Shown one piece after another: positions 28,901 to 31,900 of a stretch of DNA of 64,000 nt (the stretch's first letter is position 1; each line of letters begins with the position of its first letter). The notes under the pieces were generated by a model. The model saw nothing but the letters and a program-made list of their open reading frames with translations, was not told the origin of the DNA and made no database searches. Both the position numbers and the translations under genes were made by a program. Origin of the DNA: Tubiluchus corallicola (taxonomy: Eukaryota; Animalia; Priapulida); contig JAQGDQ010000083.1 in assembly GCA_030141605.1 (NCBI GenBank), positions 372,001-436,000 of the forward strand, in the 5' to 3' direction.

Positions 28901-31900
28901 AGTCACTCTTGCCAGACGCAGCTAGTCGTTCTAGTAGGTCCAAACCTCGCTCCCATTTTTTGTATAAACTCCAACCTATCAACTCGTAAGTCCTTCCGAC
29001 AACAAGATCCTGATAGTACTGACCTCCTAACATGGCCAACGTCTTTCCCAGTAACAAATTGTGATCCTTCAAGTCAAAATGGTCGTCAAAGTATCGATTT
29101 TTGATCCATTTGACTCTTTTGATGATCTGCAGAGATAAAGAAAACCTTAATTATTGGCCACCGCATTTTCTGTCAGTGCAATTCTTGAACAAAGAACTCA
29201 AGTATGATTGAAAACTTACATCAATAAAACGATAAGTACACAAGCTGAAACCAAACAAGTCAAAATTTTTGAGCAGGTCCATTCCACATCCATCAGTATA
29301 CATCCAGACTGCATTGATATATCCACAATTCAATTACAACAGTACGAACCTAGCCACTGGGGGGGGGGGGGCAAGCCAGCCCAACTCAGTGCCGGTCCCA
29401 AGCCCTGATAAATAGGGTTAGGGCCAGGAAGGGCATCCGCCTGTAAAAACTGCGCCAAAACCTTCTATGAATGAGTCGGTGAGACTTAAAGGGAAAGTCC
29501 ACAAAGAAGTGGTCAGACCCGCTCTACTCTATGGGCTGGAAGCAGCTTCTCTAAAGAAGACTGAAGAGAAGAAAATGGGTGTGGTGGAGATGAGGATGTT
29601 GAGATGGATGGTGGGAATAACAAGAAGAGATAAAATTAGAAATAATAATATCAGAGGAATAGTAAAAGTAGTGGAAGCCTCACAAGATTGCGATGGTATG
29701 GACACCTGAAAAGAAGAGTCGGTGATGATCTTGTGGGAATTGAAGACATAAATGACGAGATGGTCAACAACAGGAATGCATGGAGAAGACTCATTCACAA
29801 TGGCGACCCCGAATAGGGAAAAGCTGGGAAGAAGAAGAAGAAGAAGAATTACAACAGTACGTAATGCCAGACCACTAGTTACATGCATGATGACCTTACA
29901 TTATTCAAATTAGATGGTCTGACTTCAAAGGTCATCCAAAGCAAATTATGGCACCACATTCGCTCACTTCTTGTTGTGTTAACATACGGGAATACAACTA
30001 GGAACTTGGATACAATCTCAGACCAGTTTCAATCGTGTCTTAAGTCTTCTTTGCATAAATTGATGTTACTTTTGTAACATGCCTAAGCATGGAGTTTATA
30101 GTGAGTTTTAAATAATGCAAAGACAATTAATTATTTATGAATTACCTGTCACAAAAATTTTTAATATAATAATAATAATAGTAATAATAATAATAATAAT
30201 ACTAATAATAATAATAATAATATTTATTTAAATTTGGCTTTTTGGATCAACAATTAACATAAGATCCAAAGAACTCCAACTGTAAATAACAACTACAACT
30301 ACATAACAGAGACTATTATTACTCCGCTTTTACCCGCAATATCATGCGCCAGGCAGGGCAACAGTAGATACCAGGTACTATTTTTAAAGTCTTTGTTATG
30401 ACTCGGCCACAGTGCCGAACTCACGACCTCCCAGATGGAAAGAGGAAGCATTACAACTAGATTAAATCGTATGGCCTGTTTTTAAATGAAAAACCATTTA
30501 TATAAATGCCAATTATTAAAGCTATATTATAAAAAAATTTAGTTGGTAAACATCACATTTAATGAGTTAAGCAAGAATTACCACTTCTCCATCATCCTCC
30601 TTTGGTTCAACTTTCTTTTCCTCTACTGGTTCATCAACAGGATTATGGAAGTCCATATGACAGGAGTAGAAAGACAGGAGTTTTGTAATTGGATGGTCAA
30701 AATCCTCTTGAAGCATGCATAAAGTAGCAACCTTGGCAGCAGCTGTAAAACAAAATTGACAGACATAACTATTTTTCAAATACTTTTGTAAGGTATATGG
30801 CAGGGAAATATAGGAGAAGATTGAGTTATATTAGCTTGATTAAGCAGCAGAATGATTTTGATTCTCCACAGATCACTAGTGCAATATGATAGTTTTCAAT
30901 AGCATGCCAATATTCATAAAGTAAAGTACAATGAACTATTTTATTTTATATATACCCCACTCTTGATGTGTCAGGTGGCACAAAAAATGTGTCAAGGTTA
31001 TAAGAGGAAAATAATGGAATCAATTAAAAATTGCCACACTGGTGTTATATGCACTTTAGGCATAGAAAATTTTCCTTTAGATTTGTCCAAAGATACAAAA
31101 GTTTTAAAATAAGTTAAAAAATAAAATTGCAAAAAATTTCGTCACTATTGCTAAAATTTACAGCACGTGTTCTATGTCCACCATTTTCAAAACAAGATAG
31201 ACGAAGGTGTTCTTTCCATTAGGTGATTTTCTCACTTCTTTAAAGGGTGTTGGATTTCAGCACTCAACAAATTTTGCCTTTAATTCCTCTGCATCAAACA
31301 GCCCTGCAAGGCCATTGTACACTTTCTCTTTAAGGGAATTCCAGACATCATAATTAGAGGATTAAATCGCACGTTTTTCTTGGCAACAAATCTTTATTTT
31401 CTCTAGTGATGACCATGACATAAACTGACCGATTCCTTTATTGCTTTGCTCCATACATTGAGTGCTTTATATACCACTGAAAGTCCCTTTCCAGTTGATG
31501 ATTAGCAGACATTGTTATGGCATTTAAAATTTTTATCATGTAAAATGCTTTTCGTCGTAACTAAAGAACTATTACAACTATACACTTGTAGGTTTACAAC
31601 CAAATGTTAATGTACAGAGTAACATCATACTGTGAATTGCAACCTTGTAGAGGTACACTTACTTTTAATATTATTCTAGTCTACACTTTGGTACATTTTT
31701 CTGAACCATCCAATATACTGTGATCACAACATTTGATTTGGAGTTTAATTTTGCAATATTCTATGTACTAAGATATATGGTAAACATGATGGCAACACCA
31801 AACAGCCTGCCATTTCAATTAACGTGGCCATTAACCAAGTATGTTACATACATACTCACCTACACAAATGATGCTTACAATCAAATAATTTCAACAACAC

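What the first reader, a model, noticed from the sequence alone, without database searches (positions are those of the whole stretch)
29332..29861. Mini-RTE retroelement headed by a twister-ribozyme motif, inside an MRPS27 intron
Seen: a 500-bp insert between perfect 15-bp TSDs, joining an RTE 5' leader directly to a piece of the ORF C-terminus and an (AAG)n tail. Its first 73 nt parse as twister elements: P1 AACC/GGUU, U^A at 29351/29352, GC (T2), P3 CACUG/CAGUG, P4 CCGG/CCUG, L4 UCCCAAGC, AUAAA. Established: twister ribozymes occur at the 5' ends of some RTE elements and process their transcripts. Inference: this genome has an RTE family, perhaps with a SINE-like non-autonomous partner, that is released from host transcripts by self-cleavage. 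This copy lacks P2 and most of the GAGGG strand, so it is probably inactive. It lies antisense to MRPS27, so it would not cut that pre-mRNA.
Basis: partly seen in the sequence, partly recalled or inferred. Interest (0 to 1): 0.78.

Follow-up and report, generated by a model that had tools for sequence, protein, structure and literature searches.

The report
Twister-headed mini-RTE family, damaged copy
This 500-base insertion in an intron of an animal gene is one copy of an abundant, shortened jumping gene that begins exactly where a predicted self-cutting "twister" RNA would cut; this copy lacks four bases of that RNA and is likely dead, and both halves of the design are already known separately.

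Summary
The insert is real: 29347-29846, between perfect 15-nt TSDs, with a 131-nt RTE leader joined to the ORF C-terminus, an (AAG)6 tail, antisense in an MRPS27 intron. Rfam twister-P1 matches 29342-29425 (30.1 bits, below the 67.2 cut-off). The predicted cut is G29346^A29347, at the TSD/element border, and P2 (CCUA/UAGG) is present, varying compensatorily in RTE relatives. Assembled public runs show a high-copy family. Other copies bridge the same leader/ORF junction, start at 29346/29347 with unlike flanks, and carry an intact GAGGG strand and P4. This copy lacks four bases of that strand and has a P4 mismatch, so it is probably inactive. Best reading: a non-autonomous, internally deleted RTE whose 5' end is made by twister self-cleavage, as in Schistosoma Perere-3, and which an RTE mobilises in trans. 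Cleavage and expression are untested. Twister-headed RTEs, bipartite RTEs and ribozyme-headed R2 SIDEs are all published; six literature searches found no paper on this combination. The scan noted the same kind of element in other genomes.

The parts
29332..29346 (+). 5' target-site duplication; its last 5 nt would supply the twister P1 5' strand (29342-29345) and the N-1 base G29346
   Evidence: Rfam alignment
29347..29425 (+). Type-P1 twister remnant: L1 AA 29347-48 (predicted cut 29346^29347), P2 29349-52/29413-16, T2 GC 29353-54, P3 29355-59/29387-91 with a poly-G loop, P4 29392-95/29404-07 (U29406 mismatch), L4 29395-29403, AUAAA 29408-12, L1 3' strand short of 4 nt after 29417
   Evidence: family state
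29347..29477 (+). RTE 5' leader (twister plus downstream conserved RTE leader block); parent-type contigs leave the element after 29477
   Evidence: (loose ends)
29478..29480 (+). Junction of the large internal deletion (about 2.5 kb of ORF missing, EN and RT domains included, judged from P0007)
29481..29816 (+). C-terminal piece of the RTE ORF with two further deletions (frameshift near 29682; about 30 codons near 29740), ending in stop TAG
29817..29846 (+). Short 3' UTR and (AAG)6 tail (29829-29846); the first AA of the 3' TSD continues the tail register
   Evidence: same 3' end type in autonomous RTE L002
29847..29861 (+). 3' target-site duplication
30576..30815 (-). MRPS27 exon upstream of the host intron (tblastn HSP limits; donor near 30578)
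28881..29126 (-). MRPS27 exon downstream of the host intron (acceptor CAG at 29129-29127)

Best explanation
This is one copy of a high-copy, roughly 500-nt internally deleted RTE retrotransposon family whose copies begin at the predicted cut site of a type-P1 twister ribozyme, which likely trims the element RNA out of host read-through transcripts before an autonomous RTE copies it in trans. Shown: the anatomy, the TSDs, the shared deletion junction, many unlike 5' flanks at one start position, and the intact twister core in other copies. Inferred: (1) a copy under a host promoter is co-transcribed; (2) the twister, with its -1 base and P1 5' strand supplied by flanking host DNA, cuts at N^AA; (3) RTE protein recognises the retained 3' end and (AAG)n tail and inserts by target-primed reverse transcription, so each new TSD abuts the AA. 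This copy lost 4 nt of the GAGGG strand and a P4 pair, likely during or after insertion, and probably no longer cuts. Being antisense, it could not cut MRPS27 pre-mRNA anyway.
For: Family: 2527, 3910 and 1219 contigs laid on 901 nt in runs X1, X2, X4; summed depth over the junction bin 44,181 / 852,805 / 79,848 against flanks of 16-21 / 150-190 / 16-96 (the tool warns this is no copy number). There is no depth dip at 29477-29481, and 6 of the 24 listed pieces bridge it with at least 31 letters each side and 3-5 differences from this copy. 5' ends: loose ends at 29347 (33 contigs X1, 45 X2) and 29346 (8, 17), flank agreement only 0.43-0.48; the 29346 share, 25 of 103, is near the window's G fraction of 0.18. 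Intact core elsewhere: G at 29406 in 97.5-98.8% of depth in all three runs; loose ends reading AGGG after 29417 in 13, 27 and 6 contigs; all 11 listed pieces that span 29413-29417 have net extra letters, 9 of them exactly +4. Register: P2 paired in 16 of 16 cells with compensatory changes; both T1 mismatches and the one P4 mismatch fall in this copy. All 7 motif-bearing loci fetched have twister-P1 hits (34-64 bits); 6 of the 7 show RTE ORF sequence right after the motif, and L007 ends about 80 nt after it. Folding: the twister-compatible fold lies 14.1-15.5 kcal/mol above the MFE for this copy, 5.8-6.5 for the family-majority form and 2.9 for L002 (no pseudoknots modelled). Precedent: in Perere-3 the TSD abuts the AA and forms P1, and G^AA cleaves (PMC8501958).
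Against: No cleavage or transcript was observed. No twister here reaches Rfam's gathering score. The family-majority form was scored only by a pattern and by folding, not by Infernal, and its P2 has near-zero pairing probability without pseudoknots, as does the L002 control. The indel table never lists the AGGG insertion as a row, so the 4-nt state rests on loose ends and piece lengths; only 24 of 1901 pieces were listed. Contigs are short: no other full 500-nt copy with its own TSD was seen. X1 and X2 are one sample. Only two of the four rows in the covariation count are intact high-scoring twisters, the loci were chosen with a pattern that already demands L4 and GAGGG, and the tool warns that relatedness inflates such counts. 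The deletion near 29740 shows a depth dip and parent-type loose ends, so not all copies need share it.
Confidence: 0.78

Rival explanations
1. The family is a real non-autonomous RTE derivative, but its twister is a passenger: the fixed 5' end was inherited from the parent, and the RNA now starts there by transcription from an internal promoter or the ribozyme is too slow to matter.
For: No activity or expression data. P1 depends on chance flanks, and here its Rfam alignment marks two of four pairs as non-standard. The family-majority form has a competing hairpin 6 kcal/mol more stable. The family is young (this copy differs from the majority at 10 of 479 positions), so core conservation shows little selection.
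Against: No B box or tRNA head. P1 imperfections do not lower cleavage, and G at -1 gave mean fraction cleaved 0.68 against 0.76 in CHiTA (PMC11662667). Starts pile up at the scissile AA.
Confidence: 0.15
2. The copies spread at DNA level (tandem array, segmental duplication, or carriage in a larger element), not by retrotransposition of the 500-nt unit.
For: No second complete copy with its own TSD was seen; contigs are fragmentary.
Against: 5' flanks are unlike each other (agreement 0.43-0.48 over 103 contigs of one sample). This copy has a perfect TSD and a simple-repeat tail, and it is single in the window.
Confidence: 0.04
3. A one-off, locus-specific internal deletion of an autonomous RTE copy, with no non-autonomous family.
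For: Parent-type contigs exist: X4 loose ends after 29477 and before 29481, and around 29739/29746 in X1, X2, X4.
Against: Divergent contigs bridge the junction in all three runs with no depth dip; at the second deletion 99% or more of depth passes through with a base this copy lacks (A29682G).
Confidence: 0.02

Closest known systems
T-variant twister ribozymes heading the RTE-clade LINE Perere-3 of Schistosoma mansoni (Liu et al. 2021, PMC8501958; read parts 1 and 3-6 of 9 plus passages, no supplements)
   Same: Type-P1 twister with the same CCG-GUCCCAAGC-CCGG-RUAAA-P2-GAGGG core; TSD directly before the AA; TSD supplies the P1 5' strand; non-specific sites; short-repeat tail.
   Different: Perere-3 is autonomous with a full EN/RT ORF and a GTAA tail; this family lacks EN and RT, has an AAG tail and another P2/P3. 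The paper has no hit for 'internal deletion' or 'truncated'. Activity was shown there, not here.
Twisters at RTE 5' ends generally (review PMC7761336, passages: 'truncated but catalytically competent' twisters conserved at the 5' end of RTE-superfamily elements, cited as in preparation)
   Same: Twister truncated at its 5' side, heading RTE elements.
   Different: A one-sentence statement on retrotransposons of the superfamily; the passages seen give no non-autonomous families.
Bipartite non-autonomous RTE LINEs: Bov-A, RTE-N2_Lch, WALLSI3, RTESINE1/2, MAR4_MD (Kojima 2018, PMC5786205; read parts 1-3 of 5 plus passages)
   Same: 5' end of an RTE joined to its 3' end by internal deletion, no small-RNA head; the paper links retention of the 5' end to ribozymes.
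   Different: No mention of twister (0 hits; it cites HDV-like ribozymes). The examples there keep mostly UTR sequence (RTE-N2_Lch: 5' 214 + 3' 70 bp), whereas this one keeps about 335 nt of ORF with two more deletions.
R2 SIDEs and R2/R1 hybrid SIDEs of Drosophila (Eickbush and Eickbush 2012, PMC3414825; abstract and outline only)
   Same: 5' self-cleaving ribozyme plus LINE 3' end, mobilised in trans.
   Different: HDV-like ribozyme, rDNA-site-specific, rare; here a twister, RTE clade, dispersed and abundant.

Membership tests
Type-P1 twister ribozyme (this copy) | Rfam RF03160 score at or above gathering 67.2 | tested here: not met
   30.1 bits, E 3.6e-4; intact relatives L002 and L006 also fall short, at 61.3 and 63.9
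Type-P1 twister ribozyme (this copy) | L1 AA, P2, T2 GC/GC, P3, L4 in canonical order | tested here: met
Type-P1 twister ribozyme (this copy) | GAGGG strand forming pseudoknot T1, and a fully paired P4 | tested here: not met
   2 of 3 T1 pairs and 1 of 4 P4 pairs broken; first G of the strand retained at 29417
Type-P1 twister ribozyme (family majority) | Full core with GAGGG and P4 CCG/CGG | tested here: met
   G29406 in 97.5-98.8% of depth; AGGG loose ends; 11 of 11 listed spanning pieces longer than this copy; pattern match
Type-P1 twister ribozyme | Site-specific self-cleavage at N^A | not testable with these tools
   needs a bench assay
RTE-clade non-LTR retroelement derivative | Homology to single-ORF EN+RT RTE-type proteins | tested here: met
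   68-71% identity to PF03372+PF00078 proteins P0005-P0008, P0018; the RTE clade label itself is recalled from the ORF, leader and tail type, and no tree was built
RTE-clade non-LTR retroelement derivative | TSD and 3' simple-repeat tail | tested here: met
Bipartite non-autonomous LINE / SIDE-like | 5' end joined to 3' end, no EN/RT coding capacity | tested here: met
Bipartite non-autonomous LINE / SIDE-like | Same deletion repeated at many loci | tested here: met
   junction bridged by divergent contigs in 3 of 3 runs that hold the element; 103 contigs with unlike 5' flanks in one sample
Bipartite non-autonomous LINE / SIDE-like | Each copy flanked by its own TSD | tested here: inconclusive
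   shown for this copy only; no genome is held and contigs are too short
Bipartite non-autonomous LINE / SIDE-like | Autonomous partner in the same genome | tested here: inconclusive
   parent-type loose ends at the main junction are listed only in X4, another sample; at the 3' deletion also in X1 and X2; no intact ORF assembled
SINE (Pol III, small-RNA head) | tRNA/7SL/5S-derived head with A and B boxes | tested here: not met
   no B box; one A-box-like match deep in the ORF piece; no tRNA; no such Rfam hit
T-variant arrangement (Perere-3 type) | TSD immediately 5' of the scissile AA | tested here: met
   TSD ends 29346, AA at 29347-29348

The most novel reading that the evidence does not exclude
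An abundant animal retroposon family with no promoter and no small-RNA head lives on twister self-cleavage alone. Each insertion site rebuilds the ribozyme's -1 base and P1 strand, so the host flank decides which copies become sources, and sense-oriented intronic copies cut host pre-mRNAs. The genome should then show an antisense bias among ribozyme-intact intronic copies that relaxes for ribozyme-dead ones.
Probability: 0.3. Interest if true: 0.62.

Novelty: new variant of a known kind. Interest (0 to 1): 0.38.

Why it matters
It extends the Perere-3 design (TSD abutting a twister cut site) to a non-autonomous, high-copy family in another animal, and gives a twister counterpart to the HDV-headed R2 SIDEs. 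Many near-identical ribozymes in different flanks form a natural series for testing whether ribozyme activity gates retrotransposition and whether intronic ribozymes are purged in the sense orientation. This one copy is likely inert and of no consequence for MRPS27.

Tried and rejected
No whole genome is held, so no genome-wide BLAST or Infernal count was possible. No second copy lies in the window. No RNA holder was listed. X6 (RNA is a guess) and X5, which share X1's species label, had 0 contigs laid; this says nothing on expression. No contig joined the two flanks (empty site) in X1, X2 or X4; contigs show presence, not absence. The motif scan of viral contigs found 0. A TSD search (10-nt seeds) in L002 and L006 found none. 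MFE folding has no signal over shuffles (z -0.78 for this copy, -0.90 for the L002 control), so it cannot detect twisters. The first constrained fold used helix positions off by one and was discarded and redone; its pattern, box and divergence outputs are unaffected. Host taxon was not resolved: one MRPS27 hit, Priapulus caudatus at 74%, and one 31% galactosyltransferase hit. L001, L003 and L004 were left out of the 4-row structure count because the automatic alignment misplaced their 5' halves and L005 duplicates L007; L007's row uses the last of its repeated 5' pieces, which lacks the AA. The look-up of earlier findings by sequence returned nothing.

Full report
Observation. The sequence has a 15-nt perfect direct repeat at 29332-29346 and 29847-29861. 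It is unique in the window and not extendable. It encloses exactly 500 nt ending in (AAG)6. MRPS27 exons for aa 90-166 and 165-246 of a Priapulus homologue map to 30815-30576 and 29126-28881 on the minus strand, so the insert is intronic and antisense. Bases 29479-29813 translate in two frames to an RTE-type ORF C-terminus: 85 of 110 candidates passed, the best at 68-83% identity, including full-length EN+RT proteins. Against P0007 (990 aa) everything before aa 843 is missing, and two further gaps occur.

Ribozyme register. Rfam gives twister-P1 at 29342-29425, 30.1 bits, E 3.6e-4, gathering 67.2; it is the only twister hit in the window. The alignment places L1 at G-A-A (29346-29348) and P2 at CCUA/UAGG. 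This matches the element order in Table 1 of Liu et al. 2021. A motif scan found 4 metagenome loci, 3 loci in genome records and 0 viral loci. All 7 have twister-P1 hits, and 6 show RTE ORF sequence after the motif. On a 4-row alignment (window, L002, L006, L007) P2 is paired in all 16 cells with both-side changes at 3 of 4 pairs; 90.9% of cells pair against 24-51% for slid controls. Four pattern-selected rows are weak statistics, but they fix the register. The predicted cut falls exactly between the TSD and the element.

Is it a family? No genome is held, so I laid assembled contigs of public runs on the region. X1 and X2 (one sample) and X4 (another) gave 2527, 3910 and 1219 contigs; X5 and X6 gave 0. 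Summed depth in the element is three orders of magnitude above the flanks. The tool warns this is no copy number, so 'hundreds to thousands of copies' is my inference. Depth does not dip at the leader/ORF junction. Six of 24 listed pieces bridge it with at least 31 letters each side and 3-5 differences from this copy. Parent-type loose ends there are listed only in X4 (2 contigs after 29477, 1 before 29481); 65 loose-end rows were not shown. The second deletion is crossed by 99% or more of depth. The third (near 29740) is crossed by 20-31 contigs per run carrying variant bases, but it also shows a depth dip and parent-type loose ends, so subfamilies with and without it may coexist.

5' ends. 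Among the listed loose ends, 33+45 contigs leave at 29347 and 8+17 at 29346, with mutually unlike AT-rich flanks (agreement 0.43-0.48). The 29346 share (25 of 103) is close to what a random G at -1 would give (0.18). 219 rows were not shown, so other start positions may exist, and X1 and X2 partly count the same loci. This is the Perere-3 pattern, in which the TSD abuts the AA and supplies the P1 5' strand (PMC8501958).

This copy against the family. Other copies have G at 29406 (97.5-98.8% of depth). They read AGGG after 29417 (13, 27 and 6 contigs), and all 11 listed pieces spanning the site are longer than this copy (9 by exactly 4). The indel table itself shows only a rare AGCG variant, which I cannot explain; gap positions are not printed. 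This copy thus lacks 4 nt of the GAGGG strand, probably by slippage between G runs (inference). That breaks 2 of 3 T1 pairs and, with U29406, one P4 pair. The twister-compatible fold is 14.1-15.5 kcal/mol above the MFE here, 5.8-6.5 in the family-majority form and 2.9 in L002 (no pseudoknots). In CHiTA, two and three imperfections in the longer pseudoknot lowered mean fraction cleaved from 0.76 to 0.55 and 0.28, while P1, P2 and most P4 defects were tolerated (PMC11662667). Some residual activity is therefore not excluded: the first G of the strand is kept and another AGGG lies 2 nt downstream. I put activity of this copy at about 15%. It differs from the majority at 10 of 479 positions (2.1%), which fits an unmutated TSD (P about 0.5).

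Mechanism. Most likely (0.78): host read-through transcription, twister cleavage at N^AA, recognition of the retained 3' end by an autonomous RTE protein, and target-primed insertion. The AA shared between tail register and TSD fits priming by microhomology. Anatomy, multiplicity, start position and core integrity are shown; transcription, cleavage and trans-mobilisation are inferred. The main rival (0.15) is that the ribozyme is a passenger.

Known or new. Six paper searches gave the parts separately: twister on autonomous Perere-3 (PMC8501958, parts 1 and 3-6 of 9 and passages); a statement that truncated active twisters head RTE elements (PMC7761336, passages); bipartite non-autonomous RTEs (PMC5786205, parts 1-3 of 5 and passages; 'twister' 0 hits); ribozyme-headed R2 SIDEs (PMC3414825, abstract; PMC6765202, passages). 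The catalytic roles of the L1 A and G come from PMC5408937 (passages). None of the listings or passages described a twister-headed non-autonomous RTE family. The library lacks most subscription journals and Repbase, and I saw no supplements, so absence from print is not established. Two earlier notes of this scan report the same kind in other genomes (unchecked, seen after my reading was set). Verdict: real, a new variant of a known kind, interest 0.38.

Noticed in passing
L004:847-1277: A second, independent twister-bearing RTE leader joined about 80 nt downstream to the late RT region (P0007 aa 752 onward): another internally deleted RTE with a different breakpoint; single contig, P2 mismatched.
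   Followed up: partly
L005, L006, L007: Twister-headed RTE sequence in bacterial genome records (Alcanivorax profundi, a Breoghania MAG, Thalassococcus profundi). L005 and L007 share 647 nt at 98.9%. Likely animal DNA contamination of the assemblies.
   Followed up: partly
L006:4090-4110 and L007:670-740: Short partial duplications of the twister's first 8-15 nt lie just upstream of the 5' end, perhaps template jumps during 5' integration.
   Followed up: no
L002:1-900: Autonomous RTE 3' end with (AAG)n tail followed after 21 nt by an intact twister (61.3 bits) and a new ORF: a tandem insertion or a collapsed repeat contig.
   Followed up: partly
window 29359-29371: The poly-G run in the P3 loop varies from -5 to +3 nt among family copies.
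   Followed up: no
window 29491-29831, run X4: X4 has about 25 times more summed depth at the 3' end than in the 5' leader, unlike X2; it may hold many 5'-truncated or differently deleted relatives. One X4 flank contig shows 4 substitutions in about 100 nt.
   Followed up: no
window 21840-22940 (-): Intronless 366-aa galactosyltransferase reading frame (PF01762, E 6.7e-45) downstream of MRPS27, with only one distant database hit at 31%.
   Followed up: partly
window 16692-18640 and 33501-33855: A 50-nt tandem array of 37 copies, and a 33-nt array of 10 copies next to an MRPS27 exon.
   Followed up: no
window 41724-42376 (+) and 54448-54942 (-): Decayed reverse-transcriptase fragments of other LINE families (25-32% identity to RTE proteins).
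   Followed up: no
window 45298-45856, 46641-46723, 16063-16339: Long imperfect palindromes, MITE-like; they give sub-threshold Rfam microRNA hits.
   Followed up: no
window 6519-7137, 20009-20617, 49922-50184, 51916-52364; 24726-25394, 35721-36237, 58417-59120: Two older dispersed repeat families at 71-78% identity.
   Followed up: no
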